Origin: Geobacter metallireducens GS-15
GTDB taxonomy: Bacteria; Desulfobacterota; Desulfuromonadia; Geobacterales; Geobacteraceae
Length of the DNA stretch: 32,000 nt
NCBI RefSeq assembly: GCF_000012925.1
Contig: NC_007517.1
Span: forward strand, 1,890,001-1,922,000
Reading direction: 5' to 3'
Shown here: in pieces, positions 2,843 through 31,137 of the stretch
Layout of the letters: each line of letters opens with the position of its first letter
How positions within the stretch are numbered: position 1 is the stretch's first letter
The notes under the pieces: model-generated
Seen by the model: only the letters and a program-made list of their open reading frames with translations
Told to the model about the DNA's origin: nothing
Database searches by the model: none
Made by a program: the position numbers and the translations under genes

Positions 2843-2882
2843 CGGAAACTTGATGATTTAGGTGAGGGGAACAAACCAGAGA

Positions 2883-3704
2883 ATGAATAATGCTCTAACC
2901 ATTGACGTGGAGGAATGGTTTCACGTCTGTGGTGTTGCAGGATACGGTTACGGAACTCACCCGTCGCACGTCCTGCGGAATGTTGACAGGCTGCTCGAGT
3001 GTTTCGCGGCGGTGGACGTTACGGCCACCTTCTTCGTACTCGGTTCGGTAGCCGAAGCATTGCCGTCGCTGGTCCCGGCAATAGCAGCGGCCGGCCACGA
3101 GGTTGCATCGCACGGTTTCTCCCATACGCTGATTACAGCGTTGTCGCCGGCCGCATTTCGCGACGAATTGCGCCGAACCAATGATATTCTCTCGATTCAG
3201 TCGGGCAAGCGGCCCATCGGGTTTCGTGCCCCCCAGTGGTCTCTTTCGCGTACGGTGACACCGTGGGCATTCGAGATCCTGCATGATGAGGGATTCCGCT
3301 ACGATTCCAGTTGCAACCCGCTCCCTTTTGTGGGGGATCGGTCCGGTTCCCGCGTTCCCTACAAAATCGGGATGGCTGGGAAAAGTCTCTGGGAGATTCC
3401 CCCGATGGTAACGCCGTCGATGCTGGGAAACCTCCCGACCGGCGGGGGATGGGGATTCAGGTTCTTTCCGCCGCGGATGATCGAGCGGACTGTACAGCGC
3501 CTCAATGAAGAGGGACAATCGGCTGTTTTCTATCTTCATCCCCGGGAGATTGACCCCAGTGGTCCGCGTCTTCCATTGTCGCTCTTTCGACAGTTTGTGG
3601 CCTATGGCCCACGGACTGACGCATTGCAGCGGCTGGTCCCGCTTATGAAGCGGTTTCGTTTTACTTCTCTGGGCAATCTGGTGGATCAGTGGGAATCTGC
3701 GTAG
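2883..3704 (+). CDS. Polysaccharide deacetylase family protein (carbohydrate esterase 4-like)
   Basis: N-terminus MNNALTIDVEEWFHV plus HEVASHGFSH and RAPQWS motifs are typical of the NodB/polysaccharide-deacetylase fold. The ORF track starts at GTG 2862. I prefer ATG 2883, which follows a GAGGGGA Shine-Dalgarno and gives the usual N-terminus for this family. Confidence 0.8.
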   Translation: MNNALTIDVEEWFHVCGVAGYGYGTHPSHVLRNVDRLLECFAAVDVTATFFVLGSVAEALPSLVPAIAAAGHEVASHGFSHTLITALSPAAFRDELRRTNDILSIQSGKRPIGFRAPQWSLSRTVTPWAFEILHDEGFRYDSSCNPLPFVGDRSGSRVPYKIGMAGKSLWEIPPMVTPSMLGNLPTGGGWGFRFFPPRMIERTVQRLNEEGQSAVFYLHPREIDPSGPRLPLSLFRQFVAYGPRTDALQRLVPLMKRFRFTSLGNLVDQWESA

Positions 3705-4351
3705 TTATACCGGCATTCAATGCCGCTTTGACAATTGAAGCAGTTGTTCGGGAGACTCTGGAACAGGGATTGCCCCTCGTGGTCGTCGATGACGGCTCCG
3801 AGGACGGCACGGCAGACTGCGTCAGGGGACTGCCGGTGAACCTGGTCAGCCACGGGAGAAATCGCGGCAAAGGGGCAGCCCTGAAGACAGGCTTCGCATG
3901 GGCGTTGGAATACGGTTTTTCCGGCGTGATCACCCTGGATTCGGATGGACAGCACGACCCTACGGCCATCACACTTCTGGCGGAAACGGCCAAGAACGAC
4001 GGTTGGGATATCCTCGTGGCCTCCCGCTTCGCCCAGTTCAACCAGATGGCAGGGCTGCGGCGCCACTGGAACCGGTTCGGCGCCTGGTGCATGAAGAAGC
4101 GGACCGGCTTTCAGATCGACGACAGTCAGTCGGGCTTTCGCTATTACTCGGCCCGTCTCCTGCGGATGGTGTCTCTCGGGAAAGACGGCTACGATCTGGA
4201 GATGGAAATCCTGATGAAGGCCTGGCAGGCCGGTTGCACCATCGGCTCGGTGCCAGTGCCGGCCCGGGTGGCGGACGGCCGGGCCACCAGCCATTTCCGG
4301 CCGGTGCGCGACACCTGGAACATTTGCATGACATTTCTTCGGTATATGTAG
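3689..4351 (+). CDS. Family 2 glycosyltransferase (small, ApeJ-like position)
   Basis: GICVVIPAFNAALTIEAVV...VVVDDGSEDGT...GRNRGKGAALKTGF...LDSDGQHDP are classical GT2 (GT-A, DxD) motifs. GTG start overlaps the deacetylase stop by 16 nt. Confidence 0.85.
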   Translation: MGICVVIPAFNAALTIEAVVRETLEQGLPLVVVDDGSEDGTADCVRGLPVNLVSHGRNRGKGAALKTGFAWALEYGFSGVITLDSDGQHDPTAITLLAETAKNDGWDILVASRFAQFNQMAGLRRHWNRFGAWCMKKRTGFQIDDSQSGFRYYSARLLRMVSLGKDGYDLEMEILMKAWQAGCTIGSVPVPARVADGRATSHFRPVRDTWNICMTFLRYM

Positions 4352-4363
4352 GGAACTCTAGCC

Positions 4364-5746
4364 ATGCTGCAAAGCCTTAAAAACTATTCAACGGAAAAGA
4401 TCGTTTCGCTCCTCCTGTCTCTGGCCACCAACTCGTCCAACGAGACCCTGGCTCGGATGACCCACCTGATGGAGCTGATCCCGAAAAAAGACTACTACCG
4501 GGAGCGGATCCGGTGGATCAGGCAGCTCATCCGGGAAAACCATCCGAGCATCGAGTTTCCCCGCCGGATCCTCCGCGACCTCCACCCCAACCAGCGCGAC
4601 AAGTGGATCACCAACCTGGCGGTGAACCACCTCCTGATAGGGACCAACAAGCGGAAGGCCTGGGCCGACCGGGAAGGGTACTATCCCCCTTCCACGGTAG
4701 TCATCAGCCCCACCATGAAATGCAACCTCTCCTGCTACGGCTGTTATGCCGGCGATTACGGCAAGGGGCTGGAACTCTCACTGGAGGAGGTGGACTCGGT
4801 CCTGACCCAGATGAAGGAGATGGGGGTCTACTTCGCGGTCATCTCCGGCGGTGAGCCGTTTTTCATGCCGAATATCTTCGAGATCTTCCGCAAGCATTCC
4901 GACATGGCGTTCCTGGTCTTTACCCACGGCGGGCTCATCGACGAGGCCATGGTTGAGCGGCTGATCGAGGTGGGGAACGTCATGCCCGCCTTTTCCCTGG
5001 AGGGGTATGAGCCGGAAACCGACGAGCGGCGCGGTCCCGGTCACTTCCGCAAGGTCATGGGGGCCATGGATCTTTTGCGGAACGCGGGGCTCTCCTTCTG
5101 CGGCTCCTTCACCCAGACCAGCAGGAACACCCCGGTCATCACCGACGGAAGCTTCATCGACATGCTCCTGGAGAAGGGGGTATTCGCCCTCTGGCTCTTC
5201 ACCTACGTGCCGGTGGGGCGAGATCCGAACCTGGAACTGATGGCCACGCCCGAGCAGCGGGACCTTCTTCGGACGAGGGTCGCCGAGTTCCGCGCCACCA
5301 AGCCGATGCTCTTCATCGATTTCTGGAACGACGGCCCCATCATCAGCGGCTGCATCGCCGGAGGACGGAAATACTTCCACATCAACGCCAACGGCGACAT
5401 CGAGCCGTGCGTTTTCTGTCACTTTGCCGTGGACAACATCCGCCGTACCTCTCTCAAGGATGCGCTCCGGTCGCCGCTCTTCCAGAAGATCCGCCAGCAG
5501 CAGGGGGAGCATGAGAATCTCCTCCGTCCCTGCATGCTGATCGACCACCCCGAGGTGGGACGGGAACTCTTCAACTCCGAAGGGGTCTATCCGACCCATG
5601 AGGGCGCTGCCGAGATATTTACCGGCCTTGCCGGGCAGGTGGATGCCTACGCTACGGAGTATGCCGGGATCGCCGATCCCGCATGGGAGCGGGAATTCGT
5701 CGATACCGGCCGCGCTGAAAAGAAAGTGAAGAACCGTAAGCGGTGA
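4364..5746 (+). CDS. Radical SAM enzyme with C-terminal SPASM/twitch-like Cys motif (not B12 type)
   Basis: CX3CX2C cluster motif in TMKCNLSCYGCYA. SAM-binding ISGGEPF. C-terminal GCIAGGRKYFHINANGDIEPCVFCHF resembles auxiliary-cluster (SPASM/twitch) motifs. About 100-aa N-terminal extension of unknown function. Confidence 0.8.
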   Translation: MLQSLKNYSTEKIVSLLLSLATNSSNETLARMTHLMELIPKKDYYRERIRWIRQLIRENHPSIEFPRRILRDLHPNQRDKWITNLAVNHLLIGTNKRKAWADREGYYPPSTVVISPTMKCNLSCYGCYAGDYGKGLELSLEEVDSVLTQMKEMGVYFAVISGGEPFFMPNIFEIFRKHSDMAFLVFTHGGLIDEAMVERLIEVGNVMPAFSLEGYEPETDERRGPGHFRKVMGAMDLLRNAGLSFCGSFTQTSRNTPVITDGSFIDMLLEKGVFALWLFTYVPVGRDPNLELMATPEQRDLLRTRVAEFRATKPMLFIDFWNDGPIISGCIAGGRKYFHINANGDIEPCVFCHFAVDNIRRTSLKDALRSPLFQKIRQQQGEHENLLRPCMLIDHPEVGRELFNSEGVYPTHEGAAEIFTGLAGQVDAYATEYAGIADPAWEREFVDTGRAEKKVKNRKR

Positions 5747-6636
5747 CCTATTACAACAGTATCAACCTGTTCCTGATCAACCTGTTCACCCGCCTCGTGC
5801 CGCGGTGGCTTTTCCCCCCCTTTGCCTTTGTCACCGCCGGGATTGTCTACTTCCTTGCGGGCACCCAGCGGCGTGGCACCCGGGAAAACCTTCGGGTGGT
5901 GACCGGCCGCCGCCATGTGGAGGGGCTGCTGATCAGCACCTTCTACAAGTATGCCCGCAATTGGGCCGACGTGATGCTGATGATGCGCCTCACGGGGGAG
6001 CGCCTCTTTTCCCTGATCGGCCGACGCAGCATGAGTACCCCCCTGGATGAGGCCCTGGCGGCGGGCACCGGCGCCATTCTCGTCTCGCCCCACTTCGGGA
6101 ACTGGGAGCTCGGTGGGCTGGGGCTGGCCGATCTGGGGTACAAGATCAACGTCCTCACCTTCCGGGAACCGGACGAGAAGGTGAATGAACTGCGGGAGCG
6201 GGTTCGGGGGGAGCGGGGGATAGGGTTCATCTACGTGGACCGCCACGACACCTCGCCGCTGGCCATCATCGAGGCGGTCAACGCCCTGCGCCGCAACGAG
6301 GTCGTGGCGCTGCTGGGGGACCGGGACGGCTCCTCCCACACGATGTCCGTCGAATTTTTTGGCCGCCCCGCCAATATTCCCCTGGGGGCCGCCTATCTCT
6401 CCCTGGCCAGCGGGGCACCGGTCATCCCGGTCTTCGTCCCCCTTGAAGGGGGGAGGTACGCCACCATCATGGAGGAGCCGATCCATTTCCGGAGCGGGCA
6501 CAGGGACCACGGTATCGTGATCCGGGAGGGGGTCGAACGGCTCATTCGGCTCTTCGAAAAATACATCCGGGTCTATCCCGACCAGTGGTATAATTTTTTC
6601 CCTTACTGGGACCAATCATCGCACACAAAAGGATAA
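5743..6636 (+). CDS. LpxL/HtrB-type (lipid A biosynthesis / lysophospholipid) acyltransferase, ApeD-like
   Basis: N-terminal membrane anchor. HFGNWELGG (the HX4D/E acyltransferase motif as found in LpxL/LpxM). Typical size of 297 aa. GTGA overlap with the upstream gene. Confidence 0.8.
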   Translation: MTYYNSINLFLINLFTRLVPRWLFPPFAFVTAGIVYFLAGTQRRGTRENLRVVTGRRHVEGLLISTFYKYARNWADVMLMMRLTGERLFSLIGRRSMSTPLDEALAAGTGAILVSPHFGNWELGGLGLADLGYKINVLTFREPDEKVNELRERVRGERGIGFIYVDRHDTSPLAIIEAVNALRRNEVVALLGDRDGSSHTMSVEFFGRPANIPLGAAYLSLASGAPVIPVFVPLEGGRYATIMEEPIHFRSGHRDHGIVIREGVERLIRLFEKYIRVYPDQWYNFFPYWDQSSHTKG

Positions 6637-6639
6637 GGC

Positions 6640-6897
6640 ATGGCAGACCAACTGATTGAAGAAGTTAAACAACTCATCATAGACGCCCTCCGGATTGAGG
6701 GTATGACTCCCGCCGAGATCGATACCGATGCGCCGCTCTTTGGCGAGGGGTTGGGACTTGACTCCATTGATGCCCTCCAACTGGTGGTGGCCATGGAGAA
6801 GCAGTACGGCGTCGTTGTTCCCGATGCTGCCACCGGGACCAAGGTCTTTCAGTCGGTCCGTACCGTGGCCGACTTTGTCGCGGAAAACCGTAAATGA
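6640..6897 (+). CDS. Acyl carrier protein
   Basis: 85 aa. Phosphopantetheine attachment motif GLGLDSIDALQLV. Good Shine-Dalgarno (AAAGGATAAGG) upstream. Confidence 0.9.
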   Translation: MADQLIEEVKQLIIDALRIEGMTPAEIDTDAPLFGEGLGLDSIDALQLVVAMEKQYGVVVPDAATGTKVFQSVRTVADFVAENRK

Positions 6898-8180
6898 AGC
6901 TCCTCTTCGTCTCTCCCGGATGGCCGCGGGGGAGGCTCTGGGGGGAGCTGGGCTTCAAGTTTCCTTCCCTTTCCCTTGCCGCGCTGGCGGCCGTCACCCC
7001 CGAATCGTGGGACGTGGCCCTTTGCGACGAGAATATCGAGCCGCTCGATCTGAATTCCGACGCCGATCTCGTGGCAATTACCGCCATGACTCCCCAGGCA
7101 CCCCAGGCCTACCGGATCGCTGCCGCGTTCCGCGCCCGGGGGAAGCGGGTGGTCATGGGGGGCTTCCACGCCAGCAACCTGCCGGAAGAGGCGCTCCAGC
7201 ACGTGGATGCCGTGGTGGTGGGAGAGGGTGAGGTGGTCTGGCCCCAACTCCTGGCCGACCTTGAGCGGGGCGAGCTGCAGCGCATCTACCGGGCCGCAAC
7301 CGCACTCGCCATGGAAGCGATTCCCGTGGCCCGTCGTGAGCTATTCCAGGGGAAGCGGTACCTCTTCACCAATACCCTCCAGACCACCCGGGGCTGTCCC
7401 TTTGATTGTGAATTCTGCTCCGTTACCGCCTTTTACGGCCGTAGGTACCGCAAGCGGCCGGTGGATAACGTTCTGGCCGAGCTGGAACTCCTCCGCCGCC
7501 GGAACTCCTTCGCCTTTTTCGTGGATGACAACCTGGTGGCCGACCGCACCTACGCCCTCTCCCTCTTTGCCGGCATGAAGGGGATGGGGTTCAAGTGGCT
7601 TTCCCACGCCCCCATCGATTTCGCCCACGACCGGGAGTTCCTGCGGGCCGCCGGCGAGGCCGGCTGCGTCGGGATGTTCGTCGGCTTCGAGTCCCTGAAC
7701 CAGGACGCCCTTGCCGCCATGGGGAAGGTGACCAACACGGCCCGTTCCTACCTGGAGGATGCCCAAGCCTTCCGTGACAACGGCATCGGCATTCTCGGCT
7801 CGTTCGTCCTCGGCTGCGACAACGACACTCCCGCCGTCTTCGAGGGGCTCCTCCGCTTCTGCGAGGAGGCGCGGCTAGAGGCGGCGATTTTCCCGATTCT
7901 TACCCCCTATCCCGGCACCGAGGTCCGACGGCGGCTTGAGGCGGAAGGCCGGATCATCTCCAGCGACTGGCAGGACTACGACATGGAGCACGTCACTTTC
8001 CTCCCGCGTGGGATGTCCGTTGACGAGCTTCAGCAGGGGTATGACTGGCTGAACCGTTCCTTTTACTCCTTACCATCCATGTACCGGAGAATCTTCAAGG
8101 CCCACCGCTCGGTCCAGGTATTCGCCCCCATGAATTTCGGATTCCGCAGCGCTATCCGCCGGAAGGGGAGGGTCGCGTGA
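6894..8180 (+). CDS. B12-binding-domain radical SAM enzyme (class B), paralog A
   Basis: N-terminal Rossmann-like B12-binding region (LVAITAMTPQAPQAYRIAAAFRARGKRVVMGGFHAS). Cluster motif TTRGCPFDCEFCSV. C-terminal SDWQDYDMEHVTF region like DUF4070-type tails. Clearly paralogous to the ORF at 17479-18783. Confidence 0.85.
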   Translation: MKLLFVSPGWPRGRLWGELGFKFPSLSLAALAAVTPESWDVALCDENIEPLDLNSDADLVAITAMTPQAPQAYRIAAAFRARGKRVVMGGFHASNLPEEALQHVDAVVVGEGEVVWPQLLADLERGELQRIYRAATALAMEAIPVARRELFQGKRYLFTNTLQTTRGCPFDCEFCSVTAFYGRRYRKRPVDNVLAELELLRRRNSFAFFVDDNLVADRTYALSLFAGMKGMGFKWLSHAPIDFAHDREFLRAAGEAGCVGMFVGFESLNQDALAAMGKVTNTARSYLEDAQAFRDNGIGILGSFVLGCDNDTPAVFEGLLRFCEEARLEAAIFPILTPYPGTEVRRRLEAEGRIISSDWQDYDMEHVTFLPRGMSVDELQQGYDWLNRSFYSLPSMYRRIFKAHRSVQVFAPMNFGFRSAIRRKGRVA

Positions 8181-10847: not shown

Positions 10848-10930
10848 TGCTGTACCCCTTCATTCTGGACTTTTCAGCCTGTGACCAGTAAAATACATCC
10901 TTTCACAAAGTCTTTATGCATGGAGCCAGC

Positions 10931-13907: not shown

Positions 13908-14286
13908 TCCCAACCCCGAAGCATATCTCCCCCACCGCCGTCCTTTTCTCCTTCTCGACCGCATCGTGGCGCTCCAACCGGGCGAGACGGCCACGGCCGC
14001 CATCTCCGTGACCGGCGGCACGAGGCACTTCCCGGACGTGCTCCTTATCGAGGCGATGGCCCAGCTGGGGGGGATCGCCGCCGGACATGAGGAGGGGGAG
14101 GGGGGATTCCTGGCGGCTATCGATCGGGCCACGTTCATCGGTTCCGCCTCAGCCGGCGATCTGCTGGAGGTGACAGTCAGGGTGATCAAGTCCTTCGGTC
14201 GTCTCCACCTGCTGGAAGGGGAGGTTTCCGTTGAGGGGCGGGTGCTGGCCACGGCCGGCTTTACCCTCGGCATGGGGAGGATTTAG
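13873..14286 (+). CDS. Hot-dog 3-hydroxyacyl-ACP dehydratase (FabZ/FabA/ApeI-like)
   Basis: LPHRRPFLLLDRIV...GGTRHFPDVLLIEAMAQLGGIAAG is the FabZ-type His motif region. The start is uncertain. TTG 13873 has GGAAGG 8 nt upstream and gives about 137 aa. The ORF-track GTG 13786 would overlap the upstream gene by 122 nt. Confidence 0.75.
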   Translation: MPSRSAEALLFNPNPEAYLPHRRPFLLLDRIVALQPGETATAAISVTGGTRHFPDVLLIEAMAQLGGIAAGHEEGEGGFLAAIDRATFIGSASAGDLLEVTVRVIKSFGRLHLLEGEVSVEGRVLATAGFTLGMGRI

Positions 14287-14938: not shown

Positions 14939-17482
14939 ATGCTGAACAGAGTAACCGGCGCGACCCAGTCCGCCATCAAACGCCACCTGTCCTGGATTTT
15001 CAGGGTAACCAGCACGCGGCCCGTGATGGTTTTTGCCGCGTTTGTTTTTTTTGTCGCTCTTTCAGTCGTCTCGATTCTTACCACTCGTTTCGAGGCCGAT
15101 GTCTTCAAACTCTTTCCGGCGCGCCAAGGGGCACTCCGTCTCTTCCTCGATTCCCTCCAGTGGACCGGTAGTGCCAACGAGGCCTATTTCCTGCTCGAAG
15201 GGGAGAAGGAGCGCCTCGTCCCGGAGGCCGAGGCGTTTGCCGGCCGACTGAAGGAGCTTCGGGTCGACGGGGCACCGGCCTTCCGCCGGGTCATCTACCG
15301 GATCTACGACCCGTCGGAGGCCAGGGCCTTTGCGGACTTCATCGGATATGCCGTGGTGCACCCCGGTTCTTTCCTCGAACCGGCGGATGTGCCGGCTTAC
15401 CTGGGGCGCCTGGCGCCGAAGGCCATGGACGAGGCCCTCCTCCGGACGGGAACGGAGCTGGCCAGCCAGGCCGGAGCCGGTCTGCGGGACCTGGTCGTGG
15501 CCGACCCCCTGGCCCTGCGGGATCTCGTAACTCCTCGGCTGAAACGGGGAAGCCAGGCTCTCGATCTGGACCCGAACTCCCCCTATTTCCTCTCCCGGGA
15601 CGGCCGAGTGCTGATCATCATTGCCGAGCCTGCCCGTCCGGTGCAGGACATGGTCTTTGCCCGGAAGCTGGCCAAGGGGATCAACCAGGCCAGGGAAGGG
15701 GCGCGGGTCCGGATATCCTGCGCCGGGGCCCACCTGTCGGCGGTCATCGACGAGGCGGCCATGAAGGGGGACATCCTCTCCTGCATCCTCTCGTCCCTTG
15801 TGGTGGTCCTGCTGCTTTTCTTCGCCACCTATCGGCGGGTGCTGCCGACGCTCCTTCTGCCAGTCATCATCGGGGGGGGCGTGGTGTTGGCCTTGGGGGT
15901 GGCCGGCGCCTTCCTTCCGTCGATCCATATCATCTCCTTCGCTTTCATGGCGCTCATCATCGGCCTCGGCACCGACTATTCGGTCCACCTCTATGACCGT
16001 TATCACATGGAGCGCTGCGCCGGGCTGACGCCGGAAGAGGCCCTGCGGCTCGCCGTCACCGACACGGGACACGGCATCTTCACCGCCGCCACAACTACTG
16101 CCATGCCGTTTCTCACCCTGGCCATCACCGACGTGCGGGCACTCTCTGAACTGGGTATCCTGGTGGGACTCGGGGTGCTCTTTTCCCTCTATACGACCTT
16201 GTTCCTCCTGCCGCCTCTGCTTCTCTTCATGGAGCGCCTGTCGCCCCGTTTTGTCTACCGGCCGCTTCCCGGCTTCGGCCTGGCCGCACTCTGGCGGGGT
16301 AGCCGTCGCCGGGGCCGGCTGGTGAAAGTGGTGTCGATTCTCGCCGTGGCGGCTTTCTGCATCATGGCCTGCTATACCACCTTCGAGGGGGAGCTGAAGA
16401 ACCTCCAGCCGCGTCATTCCGAGGCGTTCCTCACCCAGGAGAAGATCGAGCGGCACCTGAGCCTGAGTCCGAAACAGATGCTGGTGGCGGTGGAGGGTAA
16501 AGACCTTGGCGATGTGCTGGCACGGGGGGCGCGGGTTGATCTCCTTGTGGAGCGTTACCGTCAACGGGGAGAGCTGGCGGCTTTCTCCAGTCTGGGCCAG
16601 CTGGTTAACGACGACACGGCGCGTGCCGAGGTTTCACGTCAGATCGACCAGGGCCTTGCGGGGAGGGATCCGGGCAGGGCGCTCAAGGATGCTTTGGAGC
16701 GGCAAGGGTTTGCGGTGGAACCGTTTGAAGGGACCATCGCCGGCCTTGTCTCCCTCCGGGGAAATGGGTCCTCATTGTCAACCGAAGCAATTACCCGGCT
16801 TGCCGCATCGCCGCTCAAGGGGGCCGTGGACCGGCACCTGATCAGAGATGCTGCCGGTTACCACCTGCTGGTCCACCTTTTCTACAAAGGGGCTGAATTT
16901 CCCCAGGATGCCTTCCTGAAAGAACTGTCGGCCATCGACCCGTCGGCCCGTGCCACCAGCGTCGATCTGGTGAGTCGTCAGCTGGCTGCCGACGTGAAGC
17001 AGAGTTTTCTCTGGGGATTTGTCATTGGCGGGGCACTGGTGATCTTTCTCCTCCTCTCCCATTTCTCCTCGATGCTGGGACTATTTGCCTCTTTCTATCC
17101 AGTTTTCGCAGGCATTGCCGCCATGCTCGGCATCATGGCCGTCAGTGGCATGGGAATCAATTTCATGAACGCCATGGTCCTGGTGACGATTCTTGGCATG
17201 GGGAACGACTACGGAATGCACATAGCCCACCGAGTGGAGGGGAAGGACGAGCCGGAGCGGGAGTTCGTGCAGGCCGGCCGGGCGGTGCTCCTGTCGGCCC
17301 TCACCACCATCGCCGGCTTCGGCTCCCTGGCCTTTGCCGACTACGGAGCCCTTGCCTCCATCGGCTGGGCCACCAACTACGGTGTCGGGGCCACCATGAT
17401 TTTTGCGCTCGTGTCGCTTCCCGCGTTTCTCGTGGCGGGACGGCGGCGATCTCCGGCCCCTGGCAGGGAGATACGCCCATGA
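14939..17482 (+). CDS. MMPL/RND-superfamily membrane exporter (ApeM-like)
   Basis: 847 aa. Two repeats of a multi-TM bundle, each with an MMPL-type GxGxDY motif (GLGTDYSVHLYDRY and GMGNDYGMHIAHRV), separated by large soluble loops. Confidence 0.85.
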   Translation: MLNRVTGATQSAIKRHLSWIFRVTSTRPVMVFAAFVFFVALSVVSILTTRFEADVFKLFPARQGALRLFLDSLQWTGSANEAYFLLEGEKERLVPEAEAFAGRLKELRVDGAPAFRRVIYRIYDPSEARAFADFIGYAVVHPGSFLEPADVPAYLGRLAPKAMDEALLRTGTELASQAGAGLRDLVVADPLALRDLVTPRLKRGSQALDLDPNSPYFLSRDGRVLIIIAEPARPVQDMVFARKLAKGINQAREGARVRISCAGAHLSAVIDEAAMKGDILSCILSSLVVVLLLFFATYRRVLPTLLLPVIIGGGVVLALGVAGAFLPSIHIISFAFMALIIGLGTDYSVHLYDRYHMERCAGLTPEEALRLAVTDTGHGIFTAATTTAMPFLTLAITDVRALSELGILVGLGVLFSLYTTLFLLPPLLLFMERLSPRFVYRPLPGFGLAALWRGSRRRGRLVKVVSILAVAAFCIMACYTTFEGELKNLQPRHSEAFLTQEKIERHLSLSPKQMLVAVEGKDLGDVLARGARVDLLVERYRQRGELAAFSSLGQLVNDDTARAEVSRQIDQGLAGRDPGRALKDALERQGFAVEPFEGTIAGLVSLRGNGSSLSTEAITRLAASPLKGAVDRHLIRDAAGYHLLVHLFYKGAEFPQDAFLKELSAIDPSARATSVDLVSRQLAADVKQSFLWGFVIGGALVIFLLLSHFSSMLGLFASFYPVFAGIAAMLGIMAVSGMGINFMNAMVLVTILGMGNDYGMHIAHRVEGKDEPEREFVQAGRAVLLSALTTIAGFGSLAFADYGALASIGWATNYGVGATMIFALVSLPAFLVAGRRRSPAPGREIRP

Positions 17483-18783
17483 AGTCCCGTCCCCGCCTCC
17501 TCTTGGTATATCCCGCCACCCACAAACTCGGGTGGGTGCGGCGGTTCCAGCTTCCCTCCCTCTCCCTGAAACAGGTGGCTGCGGTAACCCCGCCGGAGTG
17601 GGAGGTTGTCATGGCCGACGAGGTCCATGAGGATGTTCCCTTCGGTGAAAAGTTCGACCTGGTGGGGATCACTGCCATGACCCACCAGGCGGTCCGGGCC
17701 TACGAGATTGCCGACCGGTTCCGGGCGCAGGGGGTGCCGGTGGTGCTGGGGGGAATCCATCCCACCGTGCTTCCTGAGGAGGCCCAGGCCCATGCCGATG
17801 CGGTCCTTATCGGGGAGGCCGAACCGGTCTGGGCAAAGCTTCTGGACGATTTTCTGGCGGGACGTCTGGCTCCCCTCTACCGGGCACCGATACCTACCGA
17901 CGATCGCCTCGTGATCCCCTGGTCCCGGCGCGACATCCTGGCCGGCCGGCAGTACCTGACCACCCAGACGGTACAGGCTAGCCGGGGATGTCCCTATGAC
18001 TGTCCCTTCTGCACCGTTACCCCGTACTTCGGCCGCACCTTCCGCTACCGAAATCCCGACGACGTCCTGGCCGAGCTCCGCTCCTTCGAGGGTAAGCTGA
18101 TGGTGTTCGTGGACGACAACATTCTGGGGGACCCGGTCCGGGCCAAGCCGATCCTGGAGGGGATGGCGGGGATGAATCTCCGCTGGGGAGGGCAGGCGAA
18201 CCTCCGCTTTGCCGAAGACCCGGAACTGGTCAAGCTGGTGGCCCGTTCCGGCTGTATCGGGATCTTTGTCGGCATCGAGTCGGTGACCGGTCCCCATGCG
18301 AATCACGCCAAGACCGGAAACGGCTCGTCGCAGATCGACCTGGTAAAGCGGGTCAGGGATGCCGGAATCGTGCTGGAGGCCTCCATGATCTTCGGGTTCG
18401 ACGACCACGACGAGGGAATCTTCGAGCGGACGGTCCGTTTCCTGGAGGAGTGCGCCCCCAGCATCCCCACCTTCAACGTCTTGACCCCTTACCCCGGCAC
18501 GTCGCTTTTCAAACAGTTCGACCGGGAGGGGCGGTTGCTCCACAAGGACTGGAGCCGCTACGACCATGGACAGGTGGTCTTCCGGCCCAAGCAGATGACT
18601 CCGGAGCGGCTCTACCGCGGCTGGCAGGAGGCCCGGTGGGAGGCCTACCGCCTCCCCGCCATCGCCTCGCGGGTGATGAAAGGGAAGGGGAAGCTGGTCA
18701 ACCTGGCCTACAATTTCCTCCGGCGCGGAGGGATCGAACGGCCGGACCGAATCGTCCACATACGCGAGGTTGCTGAACCATGA
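17479..18783 (+). CDS. B12-binding-domain radical SAM enzyme (class B), paralog C (closest to paralog A)
   Basis: LVGITAMTHQAVRAYEIADRFRAQGVPVVLGGIHPT B12-like domain. Cluster motif ASRGCPYDCPFCTV. Collinear similarity to the 6894-8180 product along the whole length. Confidence 0.85.
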   Translation: MKSRPRLLLVYPATHKLGWVRRFQLPSLSLKQVAAVTPPEWEVVMADEVHEDVPFGEKFDLVGITAMTHQAVRAYEIADRFRAQGVPVVLGGIHPTVLPEEAQAHADAVLIGEAEPVWAKLLDDFLAGRLAPLYRAPIPTDDRLVIPWSRRDILAGRQYLTTQTVQASRGCPYDCPFCTVTPYFGRTFRYRNPDDVLAELRSFEGKLMVFVDDNILGDPVRAKPILEGMAGMNLRWGGQANLRFAEDPELVKLVARSGCIGIFVGIESVTGPHANHAKTGNGSSQIDLVKRVRDAGIVLEASMIFGFDDHDEGIFERTVRFLEECAPSIPTFNVLTPYPGTSLFKQFDREGRLLHKDWSRYDHGQVVFRPKQMTPERLYRGWQEARWEAYRLPAIASRVMKGKGKLVNLAYNFLRRGGIERPDRIVHIREVAEP

Positions 18784-20189
18784 ATATCCTGCTTCTTCGC
18801 CCCCATCCAGGGAGTGATGCCTTTGGCCTCGGCCCCTTCTTCCGGGTCGAGCCGCTGGGTCTTGAATACCTGGGGGCCGCCCTGCTTGCTCGGGGGCACG
18901 CTGTCACCATCGCCGACCTCCGTTTTCGCCCCGGCGCCTCCACCTGGGTCCGCCGCAGCCAGCCGCGGTTAGTGGGGATCACCTGTCTCCATGCCCTGGA
19001 ATATGACCGGATCATTGCCACGGCCCGCGAGGTGCGGCGGGTTTCGCCGGACGCCTTCATCCTTGTCGGCGGCCATGCCGCGGCGGCGTTCCCCGATCCG
19101 CTCAAAGACAATGTCATCGATGCCATCTGCCTGGACGACGGCGAGGAGATCATCACCGCCCTCGCGGAGGCTCTGGAAACGGGACGGCCTCTGACCGACA
19201 TCCCGGCCCTGCTGTTCAGGACAGGGGACGGCTGGGTGGAAACTCCCCCTCTATCCGATCAGACCTGCCTCGACCTGGTCCCGCTCCCGGCGCGGCACCT
19301 CGTGGACCGGCACCGCAACAACTACCACTGTCTCCTCTTTAAGCCGGTCTGGCTCATCGAGACCGCCCGGGGGTGCCCCCACCGCTGCTCCTTCTGCTCC
19401 GTCTGGCAGCTCTATGGCCGGTCGGTGCGCGAGCGGAGCATCGCCACGGTGGTGGAGGACTTCGCCACTGCCGGTGATTCCATCTTCGTGGCCGACGACC
19501 TCTTCTGGTACAACCGGGAACGGAGCATCGAGCTTGCCGAGGCGCTGAAAAAGCGGGGAGTCCACAAGCGCTGGATCCTCGTTCAGACCCGCACCGACCT
19601 CATATGCCGGAGCGCCGACATCATGGCGGCCTGGCGTCCCCTGGCCAAGGACTTCGACATCTTCCTGGGGCTTGAGGCGGCCAGTGACAAGGGCCTTTCC
19701 GGTCTCGACAAGGACGCGGGGCTTGCGGAGAGCATCGAAGGGGTCAGGATCGCCCGGGAACTCAAGTACGGCATCAACGGCAACTTCCTCGTGGGCCACG
19801 ACTGGGGCGAGGAAGAATTCCGCGAACTCTGGGACTTCGTGGCCCAGTACGGCCTGCAGCGGGCCGGCTTCACCATCCATACCCCGCTGCCGGGGACCGA
19901 CCACTACCGCGAGATGAAACCGCGGATCCCCGACCAGCCCTGGTCCAACTTCGACATGCACCATCTCCTCTGGGAGCCGCGCATCGGCGCGAAGCGGTTC
20001 TTCGAGCTTTACGCCGAAACCTGGCGCCGCTCGATCCTCAATACCTCCGGCGAGAAGAGTATCGTCGACTGGATGCGTCAGGTCCGACCGAGCCAGATTC
20101 CGTACATTGCCCGGGTGCTCTGGCGCACCCAGCGGATGATGAAGCCTGCGGCCTATTTGAAGGAGTATGAGGCGACGCGGCCAAGGTAG
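18780..20189 (+). CDS. B12-binding-domain radical SAM enzyme (class B), paralog D
   Basis: N-terminal B12-like domain (LVGITCLHALEYDRIIATAREV...ILVGGHAAA). Cluster motif TARGCPHRCSFCSV. Last gene of the operon. Confidence 0.85.
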   Translation: MNILLLRPHPGSDAFGLGPFFRVEPLGLEYLGAALLARGHAVTIADLRFRPGASTWVRRSQPRLVGITCLHALEYDRIIATAREVRRVSPDAFILVGGHAAAAFPDPLKDNVIDAICLDDGEEIITALAEALETGRPLTDIPALLFRTGDGWVETPPLSDQTCLDLVPLPARHLVDRHRNNYHCLLFKPVWLIETARGCPHRCSFCSVWQLYGRSVRERSIATVVEDFATAGDSIFVADDLFWYNRERSIELAEALKKRGVHKRWILVQTRTDLICRSADIMAAWRPLAKDFDIFLGLEAASDKGLSGLDKDAGLAESIEGVRIARELKYGINGNFLVGHDWGEEEFRELWDFVAQYGLQRAGFTIHTPLPGTDHYREMKPRIPDQPWSNFDMHHLLWEPRIGAKRFFELYAETWRRSILNTSGEKSIVDWMRQVRPSQIPYIARVLWRTQRMMKPAAYLKEYEATRPR

Positions 20190-31136: not shown

Positions 31137-31137
31137 A

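What the first reader, a model, noticed from the sequence alone, without database searches (positions are those of the whole stretch)
2862..20189. 17-gene operon: aryl-polyene-like type II FAS/PKS plus outer-membrane lipid export, interleaved with five radical SAM enzymes and lacking any aryl-starter module
**Seen in the sequence**
- 17 co-directional ORFs with gaps of 70 bp or less and many start/stop overlaps.
- Motif-level calls in order: deacetylase, GT2, SPASM-type rSAM, LpxL-type acyltransferase, ACP, B12-rSAM, FabD-like AT, hot-dog thioesterase, B12-rSAM, SDR ketoreductase, KS, CLF-like KS partner, hot-dog dehydratase, LolA-like carrier, MMPL exporter, B12-rSAM, B12-rSAM.

**Established knowledge**
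- Aryl polyene (Ape) clusters share the KS/CLF, ACP, KR, DH, TE, LpxL-like acyltransferase, GT, LolA-like and MMPL architecture.
- They also carry an aryl-starter module (acyl-ACP ligase, ammonia lyase, methyltransferase). As far as I know they do not carry cobalamin radical SAM enzymes.
- Class-B radical SAM enzymes methylate unactivated carbons or perform cyclisations and ring contractions (for example BchE, OxsB, archaeal GDGT ring synthases).
- FAS-type genes plus several radical SAM genes is the gene logic proposed for anammox ladderane lipids. That proposal has not been biochemically established.

**Inference**
- The operon builds an ACP-tethered acyl or polyenoyl chain that is radically methylated, cyclised or cross-linked.
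- The chain is then transferred to a glyco- or lyso-lipid anchor and exported to the outer membrane.
- I know of no characterised product for this gene combination.
Basis: partly seen in the sequence, partly recalled or inferred. Interest (0 to 1): 0.92.

Follow-up and report, generated by a model that had tools for sequence, protein, structure and literature searches.

The report
Orphan radical-SAM lipid operon in Geobacter
This is a real 17-gene operon of Geobacter metallireducens that most likely builds an unusual fatty-acid-like chain, tailors it with five radical SAM enzymes, attaches it to a sugar-lipid and exports it to the outer membrane; its product is unknown, but the cluster type has been noted before as a relative of the anammox "ladderane" gene clusters.

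Summary
There are 17 co-directional genes at 2862-20189, with no gap above 68 nt and 11 overlaps. Pfam reproduces every domain call. The window is Geobacter metallireducens GS-15.

- **Conservation.** The operon is conserved gene for gene in G. hydrogenophilus. Its core is conserved across about 35 Geobacteraceae genomes.
- **Link to anammox clusters.** Gene 9 passes the curated cut-off of NCBIfam TIGR04072 (rSAM_ladder_B12). So do the cobalamin radical SAM genes in the anammox loci. Rattray et al. (2009) already noted similar clusters in Geobacter.
- **Link to aryl polyene (APE) clusters.** Compared with the E. coli CFT073 APE cluster, the ACP is ApeE-type. The GT2 and the "LpxL-type" acyltransferase are the two halves of ApeJ. 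There is no aryl-starter module, no ApeD and no enoyl reductase.
- **Best reading (inferred).** A non-aryl, probably unsaturated chain is made on a dedicated ACP. It is esterified to a hexosamine-bearing lipid and exported by a LolA-like protein plus an MMPL transporter.
- **Radical SAM set.** Three enzymes are core and two are accessory. Their chemistry cannot be assigned from sequence.

The result is a hybrid variant of two known cluster kinds. No paper in the searchable library characterises it.

The parts
1764..2663 (+). LysR-family regulator directly upstream and co-directional. It is a possible regulator of the operon, not shown to be one.
   Evidence: Pfam finds HTH_1 and LysR_substrate. 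The protein is 94% identical in G. hydrogenophilus and also lies upstream of the operon there.
2813..2842 (+). Sigma-70-like promoter match just upstream of gene 1.
   Evidence: TTGACT, spacer of 16-18 nt, then GATATT or TATTTT. This is a consensus match only.
2862..3704 (+). g1: polysaccharide deacetylase, NodB fold plus DUF3473. The start may be ATG 2883.
   Evidence: Pfam scores 113.8 and 67.3 bits. TIGR03006 scores 217 bits, below its cut-off of 276. Identity to the deacetylase of the anammox locus L062 is 36%.
3689..4351 (+). g2: GT2 glycosyltransferase of the polyprenyl-phosphate or lipid-phosphate sugar type. It is the counterpart of the N-terminal half of ApeJ.
   Evidence: Pfam Glycos_transf_2 scores 82.7 bits. 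The best NCBIfam hits are PpgS and AglJ, both below cut-off. Residues 4-218 align with ApeJ 8-229 at 29% identity, E = 2e-20.
4364..5746 (+). g3: radical SAM/SPASM enzyme with an N-terminal extension of about 100 aa. It is a core member and the most conserved gene of the cluster.
   Evidence: Pfam finds Radical_SAM and SPASM. CNLSCYGC lies at residue 120. Identity across Geobacteraceae is 73-97%. The nearest families are NirJ2, AhbD and BlsE, all far below cut-off.
5743..6636 (+). g4: membrane acyltransferase of the lipid A / lysophospholipid acyltransferase superfamily. It is the counterpart of the C-terminal half of ApeJ.
   Evidence: Pfam Lip_A_acyltrans scores 94 bits. The best NCBIfam hit is the PIM acyltransferase family at 107 bits, cut-off 209. 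LpxL/LpxP (TIGR02207) scores 30 bits against 298. Residues 11-290 align with ApeJ 264-550, E = 2e-16, and there is no hit to ApeD. An HFGNWE motif is present.
6640..6897 (+). g5: dedicated acyl carrier protein of the ApeE type.
   Evidence: NF006617 scores 77.9 bits, above its cut-off of 70. Identity is 49% to E. coli ApeE and 36% to ApeF. The LDSID serine motif is present.
6894..8180 (+). g6 (B12a): cobalamin-domain radical SAM enzyme with DUF4070. It is a core member and forms a conserved pair with g9.
   Evidence: Pfam. Identity to its paralogue g16 is 40%. It is adjacent to the g9 orthologue in Syntrophales, and stands with it as a bare pair in Acidobacteriota at 67-70% identity. The best NCBIfam hits are HpnJ, HpnR and BchE at about 90 bits, far below cut-offs.
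8177..9019 (+). g7: FabD/MdcH-like malonyl-CoA:ACP transacylase.
   Evidence: Pfam Acyl_transf_1. MdcH scores 124 bits and FabD 103 bits, both below cut-off. An EHSMG serine motif is present.
9016..9447 (+). g8: hot-dog (4HBT, YbgC-type) thioesterase, the ApeK counterpart.
   Evidence: Pfam 4HBT_2 and 4HBT. Identity to ApeK is 29%, E = 5e-15.
9444..10847 (+). g9 (B12b): cobalamin radical SAM enzyme of family TIGR04072 (rSAM_ladder_B12). It is the signature gene shared with the anammox candidate ladderane clusters.
   Evidence: TIGR04072 scores 396.5 bits, above its cut-off of 360. The exact protein is ABB31924, named "lipid biosynthesis B12-binding/radical SAM protein". The anammox genes score 418-428 bits and are 43-46% identical. 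The closest solved structure is TsrM 6wte.
10916..11668 (+). g10: FabG-type 3-ketoacyl-ACP reductase.
   Evidence: NCBIfam TIGR01830 scores 268 bits. NF009466 scores 222.8 bits against a cut-off of 222. Identity to ApeQ is 38%.
11665..12870 (+). g11: active FabF-type ketosynthase with the Cys-His-His triad.
   Evidence: Pfam finds both KS domains. The alignment to FabF shows TACSSS, NAHGTGTP and TGHCLGAAG. Identity to ApeO is 36%.
12867..13907 (+). g12: ketosynthase-like partner (chain-length-factor-like). Both catalytic histidines are lost and a cysteine is retained.
   Evidence: Only the KS N-terminal domain is detected. In a MAFFT alignment of 41 homologues, His1 is replaced by Ser (SGT) and His2 by Arg (TGRSL). 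The cysteine of QRFCSAE aligns with the KS catalytic cysteine.
13873..14286 (+). g13: FabZ/ApeP-like hot-dog dehydratase. The start is uncertain (13873 TTG, 13900 CTG or 13786 GTG).
   Evidence: Pfam FabA scores 33 bits and NCBIfam FabZ 69 bits, below the cut-off of 113. The HFP and IEAMAQ catalytic motifs are present. The G. hydrogenophilus orthologue has a weak ApeP-like Pfam hit. Candidate starts are listed.
14287..14907 (+). g14: periplasmic LolA-like lipid carrier.
   Evidence: Pfam LolA scores 68 bits. The flexirubin LolA2 family scores 54.7 bits, below cut-off. The N-terminus looks like a signal peptide.
14939..17482 (+). g15: MMPL/RND (HpnN-like, HAE3) lipid exporter.
   Evidence: Pfam MMPL scores 108 bits over two stretches. 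HpnN scores 184 bits against a cut-off of 752. Identity to ApeM is 23%.
17479..18783 (+). g16 (B12c): cobalamin-domain radical SAM enzyme with DUF4070, a paralogue of g6. It is an accessory member.
   Evidence: Pfam. Identity to g6 is 40%. Its position varies between Geobacteraceae genomes and it is absent from several.
18780..20189 (+). g17 (B12d): cobalamin-domain radical SAM enzyme. Its nearest characterised family is HpnR (hopanoid C-3 methylase). It is an accessory member.
   Evidence: HpnR scores 227 bits, E = 3e-67, below its cut-off of 650. Copies of 72-76% identity occur in only some relatives (L006, L029, L034, L061) and at a different position.
20226..20256 (+). Intrinsic-terminator-like hairpin plus T-run, 37 nt after the g17 stop codon.
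   Evidence: 9-pair stem at 20226-20246, followed by CCCTTTTTGT.

Best explanation
This is an orphan biosynthetic operon of Geobacter metallireducens GS-15, widespread in Geobacteraceae, for a tailored outer-membrane glycolipid.

**Shown (domain or family level)**
- A self-contained type II FAS/PKS line is present:
  - a malonyl transferase (g7);
  - an ApeE-type ACP (g5);
  - an active ketosynthase (g11) with a histidine-less partner (g12);
  - a ketoreductase (g10), a dehydratase (g13) and a hot-dog thioesterase (g8).
- There is no enoyl reductase and no aryl-starter enzyme.
- g2 (GT2) and g4 (acyltransferase) are the split equivalents of the two halves of ApeJ.
- g1 is a DUF3473 sugar deacetylase.
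- g14 and g15 are a LolA-like carrier and an MMPL/RND pump.
- Five radical SAM enzymes with intact clusters are interleaved with these genes.

**Inferred, by analogy with the solved aryl-polyene lipid pathway**
1. The KS pair starts from malonyl-ACP and builds a non-aryl 3-hydroxy or conjugated-unsaturated chain on g5.
2. g2 puts a HexNAc(-phosphate) on a membrane lipid.
3. g1 deacetylates that sugar.
4. g4 transfers the ACP-bound chain to it.
5. The LolA-like protein and the pump carry the product to the outer membrane.

**The radical SAM enzymes**
- They tailor the chain, the sugar, or both.
- The SPASM enzyme (g3), B12a (g6) and the TIGR04072 enzyme (g9) are core members.
- B12c (g16) and B12d (g17) are accessory, species-variable tailoring enzymes.
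- The most likely reactions are cobalamin-dependent C-methylations.
- Radical C-C ring formation, or sugar ring contraction of the HpnJ/Cds type, are the alternatives.
For: **Domains and motifs**
- The ACP passes the cut-off of the ApeE-type family NF006617. It is 49% identical to E. coli ApeE.
- g2 aligns with ApeJ residues 8-229 and g4 with ApeJ residues 264-550.
- g8, g10, g11, g13 and g15 match ApeK, ApeQ, ApeO, ApeP and ApeM.

**The analogy used**
- The APE lipid structure and proposed pathway come from bioRxiv 10.1101/2020.12.19.423268.
- That lipid has a glycerol-phosphate-GalNAc backbone.
- It carries a non-aryl conjugated 26:5-3-OH acyl chain made by the same machinery.
- ApeJ is proposed to add GalNAc and then acylate it from ApeE.
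- ApeL, ApeN and ApeM are proposed to export it.

**Conservation as a unit**
- G. hydrogenophilus has the identical 17-gene order at 90-97% amino-acid identity.
- The core order is kept in about 35 Geobacteraceae/Desulfuromonadales loci.
- 69 of 80 loci that hold a g9 relative also hold FAS-type genes. Four of the other 11 are short contigs.

**Core versus accessory radical SAM genes**
- g3, g6 and g9 are present in nearly all complete Geobacteraceae loci. g3 and g6 are among the best-conserved genes of the cluster.
- g16 and g17 move or disappear between species.

**Nearest characterised relatives**
- For g9 these are BzaD (204 bits) and TsrM (144 bits; PDB 6wte at 138 bits).
- For g17 it is the methylase HpnR.
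- Precedent for GT2 + deacetylase + cobalamin radical SAM + RND pump acting on a lipid head group is HpnI/K/J with HpnN (PMC13459092).
Against: - No product is known. The literature searches found no lipid or pigment attributed to this cluster.
- A housekeeping enoyl reductase could act in trans and give a saturated chain.
- No radical SAM protein reaches the cut-off of a characterised family, so every reaction assignment is by weak analogy.
- In seven Acidobacteriota loci the g6/g9 pair stands alone without FAS, ACP or sugar genes. This pair therefore does not strictly need the dedicated line.
- g14 has no BLAST similarity to ApeL.
- The LolB-like lipoprotein gene found in most relatives is missing from this window.
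- g12 does not match ApeC, and it keeps a cysteine, unlike classical chain-length factors.
- Identities to the Ape proteins are low (23-49%).
Confidence: 0.6

Rival explanations
1. The conserved cobalamin pair (g6 + g9), possibly with g16 and g17, acts as mid-chain or terminal C-methylases of otherwise ordinary saturated acyl chains. The enoyl reductase would be supplied in trans. The product would be a methyl-branched fatty acyl lipid rather than a polyene. This is a variant of the main model with different chemistry.
For: - The g6/g9 pair occurs alone, far from any FAS gene, in seven Acidobacteriota loci. This fits a common acyl substrate.
- The nearest characterised relatives of g9 and g17 are methylases: BzaD, TsrM and HpnR.
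- From memory only, not checked here: mid-chain methyl fatty acids such as 10-methyl-16:0 are reported from Desulfobacter, Geobacter and anammox bacteria. That taxon set resembles the distribution of TIGR04072.
Against: - The operon has its own KS/partner, KR and DH but no enoyl reductase. Together with an ApeE-type ACP, that is the hallmark of the polyene-forming APE lines.
- An export system and a sugar module would be unnecessary for bulk phospholipid acyl chains.
- The taxon correlation was not tested.
Confidence: 0.15
2. Some or all of the radical SAM enzymes remodel the sugar head group rather than the acyl chain. An example is ring contraction of the deacetylated hexosamine to a cyclitol, as proposed for HpnJ and Cds.
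For: - The triad GT2 + deacetylase + cobalamin radical SAM, with an HpnN-like pump, parallels HpnI/HpnK/HpnJ/HpnN. Cds is a second precedent.
- The best NCBIfam hit of g6 is HpnJ, and that of g15 is HpnN.
- g3 lies between the two ApeJ-half genes.
- g3 relatives lie next to the deacetylase gene in Desulfobacterales loci L069, L074 and L082.
- The nearest relatives of g3 include the sugar decarboxylase BlsE.
Against: - The scores are far below family cut-offs: HpnJ 94 against 578, HpnN 184 against 752.
- g9 is usually next to KS/partner or ACP genes, not sugar genes.
- The Acidobacteriota g6/g9 pair has no GT2 or deacetylase nearby.
Confidence: 0.2
3. The operon makes ladderane (concatenated cyclobutane) lipids, as proposed for the homologous anammox clusters.
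For: - g9 belongs to the same curated family as the anammox enzymes.
- The anammox locus L062 shares nine gene families with this operon: deacetylase, KS, KS partner, SPASM radical SAM, TIGR04072, ACP, DH, MMPL and GT2.
Against: - Ladderanes are described as strictly associated with anammox Planctomycetota (PMC9902471).
- They were not found in D. psychrophila, which carries a syntenic cluster (PMC2649909).
- The Geobacter operon lacks the amine-oxidase/phytoene-desaturase-like gene, the SAM methyltransferases and the AMP ligase of the anammox locus.
- The g9 family is very large: 1605 clusters at 50% identity with E <= 1e-30. It spans many anaerobes not known to make ladderanes.
- Even in anammox bacteria no experiment links these genes to ladderanes.
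Confidence: 0.03
4. The operon modifies lipopolysaccharide. The acyltransferase would add an unusual secondary acyl chain to lipid A. The GT2 plus deacetylase would act as an ArnC/ArnD-like aminosugar module.
For: - g4 is in the Pfam lipid A acyltransferase family.
- g2 has weak similarity to the undecaprenyl-phosphate Ara4FN transferase family, and g1 has the NodB deacetylase fold.
Against: - g4 scores 30 bits against the LpxL/LpxP cut-off of 298. It aligns instead with the sugar-acylating half of ApeJ and with the PIM acyltransferase family.
- LolA-like plus MMPL export is the pattern of the APE and hopanoid lipid systems.
- From established knowledge, not tested here: LPS is exported by the Lpt pathway.
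Confidence: 0.07

Closest known systems
Aryl polyene (APE/APEL) gene cluster, apeA-R of E. coli CFT073 and Xenorhabdus doucetiae
   Same: - Both have a type II KS with a non-catalytic partner.
- The ACP is ApeE-type: 49% identity, and it passes NF006617.
- Both have a KR, a FabZ-like DH, a hot-dog thioesterase and no enoyl reductase.
- ApeJ's GT2 and acyltransferase functions are present here as two genes.
- Both have a LolA-like protein plus an MMPL/RND exporter.
- Most Geobacteraceae relatives also carry a LolB-like lipoprotein gene, like ApeN.

   Different: - There is no aryl-starter module (ApeH ligase, ApeB methyltransferase).
- There is no ApeD, no second ACP, no second KS or DH, and no ApeG or ApeA.
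- The operon adds a malonyl transferase, a DUF3473 deacetylase and five radical SAM enzymes.
- The KS partner does not match ApeC and keeps a cysteine.
- Identities are only 23-49%.

Anammox candidate ladderane cluster of the Kuste3352-3335 type, and related clusters in D. psychrophila (antiSMASH "ladderane" class)
   Same: - Both have a TIGR04072 cobalamin radical SAM enzyme: 43-46% identity, and all pass the cut-off.
- Both have a SPASM radical SAM enzyme.
- Both have a KS with a dead partner, a dedicated ACP and a FabZ-like DH.
- Both have a DUF3473 deacetylase, a GT2 and an MMPL transporter.
- Both are uncharacterised.

   Different: - The anammox locus has an amine-oxidase/phytoene-desaturase-like gene, two SAM methyltransferases, an AMP ligase and extra KS copies.
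- It lacks the ApeJ-type acyltransferase, LolA, the malonyl transferase, the thioesterase and the three further cobalamin radical SAM genes.
- The SPASM proteins are only 25% identical.
- Geobacter is not known to make ladderanes.
Hopanoid side-chain and export genes: HpnI (GT2), HpnK (deacetylase), HpnJ (cobalamin radical SAM), HpnR/HpnP (radical SAM methylases) and HpnN (RND)
   Same: - The logic is the same: a sugar is added to a lipid, deacetylated and remodelled by a radical SAM enzyme.
- The hydrocarbon part is methylated by class B radical SAM enzymes, and an RND pump exports the lipid to the outer membrane.
- g17, g6 and g15 have HpnR, HpnJ and HpnN as their best-scoring characterised families.

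   Different: - All scores are far below the family cut-offs: 227 against 650, 94 against 578, and 184 against 752.
- The lipid here is made by a FAS/PKS line, not from squalene.
- No hopanoid genes lie in the window.

Membership tests
Aryl polyene (APE) biosynthetic gene cluster | Aryl-starter module: an ApeH-type adenylating enzyme or ammonia lyase, plus the ApeB methyltransferase | tested here: not met
   None of the 17 proteins has an AMP-binding, lyase or methyltransferase domain. There is no BLASTP hit to ApeH or ApeB of E. coli CFT073.
Aryl polyene (APE) biosynthetic gene cluster | Type II KS (ApeO/ApeR) with the chain-length-factor partner ApeC | tested here: inconclusive
   g11 is 36% identical to ApeO and 29% to ApeR. 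g12 is a KS-like partner without the two histidines, but it has no detectable similarity to ApeC and keeps a cysteine.
Aryl polyene (APE) biosynthetic gene cluster | ApeE-type acyl carrier protein | tested here: met
   NF006617 scores 77.9 bits against a cut-off of 70. Identity to ApeE is 49% over 78 aa. RefSeq gives ApeE the product name of NF006617.
Aryl polyene (APE) biosynthetic gene cluster | ApeJ glycosyltransferase/acyltransferase | tested here: met
   The function is present as two genes. g2 aligns with ApeJ 8-229 (E = 2e-20) and g4 with ApeJ 264-550 (E = 2e-16).
Aryl polyene (APE) biosynthetic gene cluster | ApeD lysophospholipid acyltransferase and a second ACP (ApeF) for the conjugated fatty acyl chain | tested here: not met
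   No protein of the operon hits ApeD. There is only one ACP gene.
Aryl polyene (APE) biosynthetic gene cluster | LolA-like, LolB-like (DUF3261) and MMPL export set | tested here: inconclusive
   LolA and MMPL domains are present. g15 is 23% identical to ApeM, but g14 has no BLAST similarity to ApeL. The LolB-like gene is absent from the window though present in most relatives.
TIGR04072 (rSAM_ladder_B12, lipid biosynthesis B12-binding/radical SAM protein) | Score above NCBI's curated cut-off of 360 bits over the full length | tested here: met
   g9 scores 396.5 bits over model positions 1-441 of 443. The anammox, Desulfobacteraceae, Syntrophobacterales and Acidobacteriota relatives score 374-428 bits. 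NCBI already gives g9 this name.
Anammox candidate ladderane cluster (Kuste3352-3335 type) | TIGR04072 radical SAM plus SPASM radical SAM, with KS/dead partner, ACP, FabZ-like DH, DUF3473 deacetylase, GT2 and MMPL | tested here: met
   All nine families are found in both the window and L062/L076. Identities to the window proteins are 22-46%. Orthology of the SPASM proteins is doubtful at 25% identity.
Anammox candidate ladderane cluster (Kuste3352-3335 type) | Amine-oxidase/phytoene-desaturase-like gene, SAM methyltransferases and a phenylacetyl-CoA-ligase-like gene | tested here: not met
   These are present in L062 and in the Kuste gene list. They are absent from the 17 genes.
Anammox candidate ladderane cluster (Kuste3352-3335 type) | The organism produces ladderane lipids | not testable with these tools
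   This needs lipid analysis of G. metallireducens. The literature describes ladderanes as confined to anammox bacteria.
antiSMASH rule classes "ladderane" and "arylpolyene" | The cluster is detected by the antiSMASH rule set | not tested
HpnR / HpnJ / HpnN (hopanoid methylase, ring-contraction enzyme, transporter) | Score above the curated equivalog cut-offs | tested here: not met
   g17 scores 227 bits against HpnR (cut-off 650). g6 scores 94 bits against HpnJ (cut-off 578). g15 scores 184 bits against HpnN (cut-off 752).
LpxL/LpxM lipid A late acyltransferases | Score above the TIGR02207 or TIGR02208 cut-offs | tested here: not met
   g4 scores 30.4 bits (cut-off 297.8) and 25.7 bits (cut-off 336).

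The most novel reading that the evidence does not exclude
The operon makes a previously undescribed class of outer-membrane glycolipid. Its polyketide-like acyl chain, its hexosamine head group, or both, would carry modifications installed by radical SAM enzymes: multiple C-methyl groups, or carbocycles. The TIGR04072 enzyme, shared with the anammox clusters, would perform a general reaction on ACP-bound or lipid-bound acyl chains that is not specific to ladderanes. G. metallireducens, which is fast-growing and (from memory) genetically tractable, would then be the organism in which the function of the "ladderane" radical SAM family can first be determined.
Probability: 0.4. Interest if true: 0.8.

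Novelty: new variant of a known kind. Interest (0 to 1): 0.6.

Why it matters
**State of the field**
- Nothing links the anammox clusters to ladderanes experimentally.

**What this operon offers**
- It places the same signature enzyme family (TIGR04072) in a cultivable organism. From memory, G. metallireducens is also genetically tractable.
- The enzyme sits next to a complete, compact FAS-type line and an APE-type anchoring and export module.
- Solving the product would assign a function to a family with more than 1600 sequence clusters at 50% identity.
- It would show whether that function is ladderane-specific.
- It would probably reveal a new outer-membrane lipid of Geobacteraceae. Their cell surface matters for extracellular electron transfer.

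**A correction to current claims**
- A 2026 preprint describes its anammox cluster as unique to ladderane producers.
- Relatives of an anammox candidate ladderane locus (the Kuste3352-3335 type; the preprint's own cluster, KustE3603-3608, was not compared here) are widespread in Desulfobacterota. Parts also occur in Acidobacteriota.

Tried and rejected
**Literature and family searches that gave nothing**
- A search for a characterised product or a paper on this Geobacter cluster found nothing specific. Terms included Geobacter with radical SAM, aryl polyene, ladderane, antiSMASH, TIGR04072 and lipidomics.
- I asked whether any radical SAM gene is an orthologue of a characterised enzyme. None reaches a curated cut-off except g9, whose family is itself uncharacterised.
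- I asked whether the membrane-spanning lipid synthase (Mss) might relate to the DUF4070 enzymes. The Mss paper mentions no B12 or DUF4070 feature, so I dropped the idea.

**Technical dead ends**
- The first locus search, with a 50-sequence alignment, failed because no stretch was conserved enough. It worked with 12 sequences.
- My first reading of the Acidobacteriota flanks used + strand ORFs that were spurious in high-GC DNA. I corrected this by cross-locus conservation.
- Rfam found no riboswitch or RNA element in or before the operon. In particular there is no cobalamin riboswitch.

**Ideas rejected on the evidence**
- A RiPP function for the SPASM enzyme: no precursor-like gene is present, and linkage to FAS genes is conserved across orders.
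- Horizontal acquisition suggested by the GC contrast: the operon has 63% GC against 60% for the window. The low-GC flanks are an IS element and an intergenic/cytochrome region.
- A LolB-like gene elsewhere in the window: none was found.

Full report
**1.

The region 2862-20189 contains 17 genes on the + strand. Gaps between consecutive genes range from -16 to 68 nt, and 11 of the 16 junctions are overlaps.

- g1: NodB-type deacetylase with DUF3473
- g2: GT2
- g3: Radical_SAM + SPASM
- g4: lipid A-family acyltransferase
- g5: ACP
- g6: B12-binding + Radical_SAM + DUF4070
- g7: FabD-like acyltransferase
- g8: 4HBT thioesterase
- g9: B12-binding + Radical_SAM
- g10: SDR ketoreductase
- g11: complete ketosynthase
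- g12: ketosynthase-like protein in which only the N-terminal domain is recognised
- g13: FabZ-like dehydratase
- g14: LolA
- g15: MMPL
- g16, g17: two more B12-binding radical SAM proteins

All five radical SAM proteins keep the CxxxCxxC motif.

A promoter-like site lies at 2813-2842. A hairpin with a T-run lies at 20226-20246. These two sites bracket the block. Rfam finds no RNA element inside or before it.

**2. Source organism.**

Exact look-up identifies the window as Geobacter metallireducens GS-15.
- g3 is ABB31918, g9 is ABB31924 and g17 is ABB31932. This numbering fits 17 consecutive accession numbers.
- NCBI already names g9 "lipid biosynthesis B12-binding/radical SAM protein".

**3. 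The operon is conserved as a unit.**

G. hydrogenophilus has the same 17 genes in the same order at 90-97% amino-acid identity. Nucleotide synteny runs from 2764 to 20180 at 92% and ends there.

The flanks differ between the two species:
- The IS4 transposase at 539-1708 is an insertion specific to this genome.
- Two genes that separate the LysR gene from the operon in G. hydrogenophilus are missing here.

I scanned one genome per species with an alignment of g9 relatives. This returned 80 loci. I annotated them by ORF calling and BLASTP against the 17 proteins.

About 35 Geobacteraceae/Desulfuromonadales loci keep the following core order:
- deacetylase, GT2, SPASM, acyltransferase, ACP, B12a, AT, TE, B12b (g9), KR, KS, KS partner, DH, LolA, MMPL.

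Three further points come from these loci:
- In most of them a lipoprotein gene of about 230 aa lies between LolA and MMPL. It carries a lipobox, and in L002 it has the Pfam LolB domain. That gene is absent from the window and from G. hydrogenophilus.
- B12c (g16) and B12d (g17) are not fixed. They lie after MMPL here and in L032, after B12a in L006, L034 and L061, and upstream of the deacetylase in L017, L023 and L027. They are missing from several loci.
- SPASM, B12a and B12b are therefore core genes. B12c and B12d behave like accessory tailoring genes.

**4. Relation to the anammox clusters.**

g9 scores 396.5 bits on NCBIfam TIGR04072 (rSAM_ladder_B12), above the cut-off of 360. Relatives also pass the cut-off:
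- a Brocadiaceae genome (428 bits) and Candidatus Jettenia (418 bits);
- Desulfobacteraceae (400 bits), Syntrophobacterales (393 bits) and Thermoanaerobaculia (374 bits).

The gene order of the Brocadiaceae locus L062 is as follows:
- unknown, DUF3473 deacetylase, KS, KS partner, methyltransferase, KS, short KS, AMP ligase, SPASM radical SAM, TIGR04072 radical SAM, ACP, DH, methyltransferase, MMPL, amine oxidase, GT2.

This order matches the content of the Kuste3352-3335 operon as listed by Javidpour et al. (PMC4790861) and discussed by Rattray et al. (PMC2649909). I matched it by gene content and order, not by direct comparison with Kuste sequences.

Nine of the Geobacter gene families are therefore shared with this anammox cluster, at 22-46% identity.

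Prior reports bear on novelty:
[quoted passage not shown] They found no ladderanes in D. psychrophila.
- antiSMASH "ladderane" clusters of unknown function have since been reported in Desulfobacterota and eight other phyla (PMC9902471).
- No experiment links any of these genes to ladderanes.

The family is very large. There are 1605 clusters at 50% identity with E <= 1e-30.

**5. Relation to aryl polyene clusters, tested directly.**

I fetched the E. coli CFT073 ape cluster and compared its 18 proteins with the 17 window proteins.

Matches found:
- The ACP g5 is 49% identical to ApeE and 36% to ApeF. It also passes the NCBIfam model NF006617, whose product name RefSeq gives to ApeE.
- g10 matches ApeQ at 38%, g11 matches ApeO at 36%, g8 matches ApeK at 29%, g13 matches ApeP at 27% and g15 matches ApeM at 23%.
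- g2 aligns with residues 8-229 of ApeJ, and g4 aligns with residues 264-550 of ApeJ. The two genes are the split halves of this bifunctional glycosyl/acyltransferase.

Matches not found:
- g4 has no similarity to ApeD.
- Nothing matches ApeH (ligase), ApeB (methyltransferase), ApeC, ApeG, ApeN or ApeA.
- g14 has no BLAST similarity to ApeL.

The operon is thus APE-like in its chain-building, anchoring and export logic.

**6. What the APE precedent implies.**

The full APE product has been solved in X. doucetiae (bioRxiv 10.1101/2020.12.19.423268).
- The lipid has a glycerol-phosphate-GalNAc backbone that carries a saturated acyl chain.
- It also carries a non-aryl conjugated 26:5-3-OH acyl chain made by the same KS machinery on the second ACP.
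- The aryl polyene is esterified to C6 of GalNAc.
- ApeJ is proposed to add the GalNAc and then to acylate it from ApeE. ApeL, ApeN and ApeM are proposed to carry the lipid to the outer membrane.

Two inferences follow for the Geobacter operon:
- A cluster without an aryl module can still make a conjugated, non-aryl chain.
- g2 plus g4 most likely add a HexNAc-type sugar to a membrane lipid and esterify the g5-bound chain to it.

g1 has no Ape counterpart. It would deacetylate the sugar.

**7. The chain-building enzymes.**

- g11 has the Cys-His-His triad.
- g12 has lost both histidines. In an alignment of 41 homologues they are replaced by Ser and Arg.
- g12 keeps a cysteine aligned with the catalytic cysteine. 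This cysteine is conserved in Geobacteraceae and Syntrophales but lost in Desulfobacterales and anammox.
- This differs from the classical Gln-type chain-length factor and remains unexplained.
- A 2026 preprint shows that the analogous anammox pair (amxFabF2 with amxFabFmut) is a KS/CLF-like heterodimer that decarboxylates malonyl-ACP to start synthesis. This is the best available model for g11/g12.
- g7 has the acyltransferase serine motif. g13 has the FabZ His/Glu motifs. g10 is FabG-like.
- No enoyl reductase is encoded. A 3-hydroxy or conjugated-unsaturated chain is therefore the default expectation, unless a housekeeping reductase acts in trans.

**8. The radical SAM enzymes.**

- B12a and B12c are paralogues at 40% identity. 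The other pairs are 22-30% identical.
- After its own family, g9 is closest to BzaD (204 bits) and TsrM (144 bits; PDB 6wte at 138 bits).
- From memory, BzaD and TsrM methylate aromatic sp2 carbons.
- Also from memory, TsrM has a glutamate that blocks canonical SAM binding. In the alignment it appears to align with a hydrophobic residue in g9. If so, g9 probably does ordinary radical chemistry. I did not verify the TsrM residue number.
- g17 is closest to the hopanoid C-3 methylase HpnR (227 bits against a cut-off of 650).
- g6 and g16 hit HpnJ, BchE and HpnR weakly, at 83-94 bits.
- g3 hits the radical decarboxylases NirJ2, AhbD and BlsE, and SkfB, all far below cut-offs.

None of the five is an orthologue of a characterised enzyme. 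Methylation is the most economical guess for the cobalamin enzymes, and their variable number fits it. Ring-forming or ring-contracting chemistry cannot be excluded.

The hopanoid head-group route is a close logical precedent for radical SAM action on the sugar. It runs HpnI (GT2), HpnK (deacetylase), HpnJ (cobalamin radical SAM) and HpnN (RND pump) (PMC13459092). Calditol synthase is another.

Gene adjacency gives a weak hint:
- SPASM relatives lie next to the deacetylase or GT2 gene in Geobacteraceae and in several Desulfobacterales loci.
- g9 relatives lie next to KS/partner, ACP or KR genes.

**9. An observation that cuts across the simple model.**

In seven Holophagales/Thermoanaerobaculia loci the B12a homologue (67-70% identity) and the g9 homologue (55-57% identity) form a bare adjacent pair. 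Their neighbours are an esterase, an iron alcohol dehydrogenase, an aldehyde:ferredoxin oxidoreductase and a SelD fusion. There are no FAS, ACP or sugar genes nearby.

In Syntrophales the two genes are also adjacent, but inside a FAS-type cluster.

B12a and g9 therefore look like a functional pair that can act on a substrate made elsewhere. This keeps alive the rival idea that they modify ordinary acyl chains, for example by mid-chain methylation.

**10. Verdict.**

- The feature is real, and the architectural reading is correct.
- It is best described as a hybrid of two known cluster kinds, neither with this product characterised. It is APE-type in its ACP, ApeJ-like anchoring and export. It is "ladderane"-type in its TIGR04072 and SPASM radical SAM pair, deacetylase and GT2.
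- It fails defining features of both kinds.
- Its existence in Geobacter was noted in one sentence in 2009, and its signature enzyme has a curated family name.
- The product and all five radical SAM reactions remain unknown. I found no paper that addresses them.
- The host is cultivable and, from memory, genetically tractable, which makes the open question of what the "ladderane" radical SAM family does directly testable.

Noticed in passing
window 408-1721 (ORF 539-1708, +): An IS4-family DDE transposase (DUF4372 + DDE_Tnp_1) is inserted here relative to G. hydrogenophilus. Window 1-407 and 1722-2648 are contiguous in that genome. The S49 peptidase and DUF2721 genes that lie between LysR and the operon in G. 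hydrogenophilus are missing here.
   Followed up: partly
window 21272-21348 (+): A c-di-GMP-I (GEMM-I) riboswitch aptamer scores 43.3 bits against a gathering score of 35. It lies directly before a multihaem c-type cytochrome ORF (21341-22870; Cytochrome_C7 and MtrC/MtrF-like domains).
   Followed up: no
window 23656-25074 (-): A sixth radical SAM gene (B12-binding + Radical_SAM, 472 aa) lies 3.5 kb downstream on the opposite strand. No NCBIfam model is above cut-off; the best hits are about 180 bits to a P-methyltransferase family, ApyD, BchE and HpnJ. It is 27% identical to g9. It is not part of the conserved operon.
   Followed up: partly
window 25319-30231 (+): A response regulator with a GGDEF diguanylate cyclase domain (25319-26293) overlaps the start of a 1313-aa PAS hybrid histidine kinase with an Hpt domain (26290-30231).
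   Followed up: no
L038-L040, L042, L044, L047, L050 (Holophagales/Thermoanaerobaculia): Homologues of g6 (67-70% identity) and g9 (55-57% identity; 374 bits on TIGR04072 for L039, the only one scored) occur as a bare two-gene pair with no lipid-synthesis genes nearby. This identity is higher than between Geobacter and Syntrophales, which suggests transfer of the pair between phyla.
   Followed up: partly
L002, L008, L010, L053 (about 15700-19900 in L002): A 4.2-kb insertion lies between LolA and MMPL in one Geobacteraceae subgroup. In L002 it carries a 1163-aa alpha-amylase-domain protein followed by a LolB-domain lipoprotein.
   Followed up: no
window 14907-14939; compare L004 16054-16794, L030 6927-7634, L006 19730-20455: Most Geobacteraceae clusters have a lipoprotein gene of about 230 aa with a lipobox (LolB-like) between LolA and MMPL. 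G. metallireducens and G. hydrogenophilus have only a 31-nt gap there. No homologue is present anywhere in the window.
   Followed up: yes
window 12867-13907 (g12): The KS partner keeps a cysteine aligned with the catalytic cysteine (QRFCSAE, conserved in Geobacteraceae and Syntrophales). Both catalytic histidines are replaced. This is unlike Gln-type chain-length factors and unlike the anammox and Desulfobacterales partners.
   Followed up: partly
L003, L009, L011, L028, L041: In several Geobacteraceae genomes the cluster is split after the g9 orthologue. In L003, DUF4197 and type VI secretion genes follow it. The KR-KS-partner-DH-LolA-MMPL half must therefore lie elsewhere or be absent.
   Followed up: no
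window 30315-31947 (-): Two adjacent CoA-transferase subunit genes (Pfam CoA_trans) lie at the end of the window.
   Followed up: no
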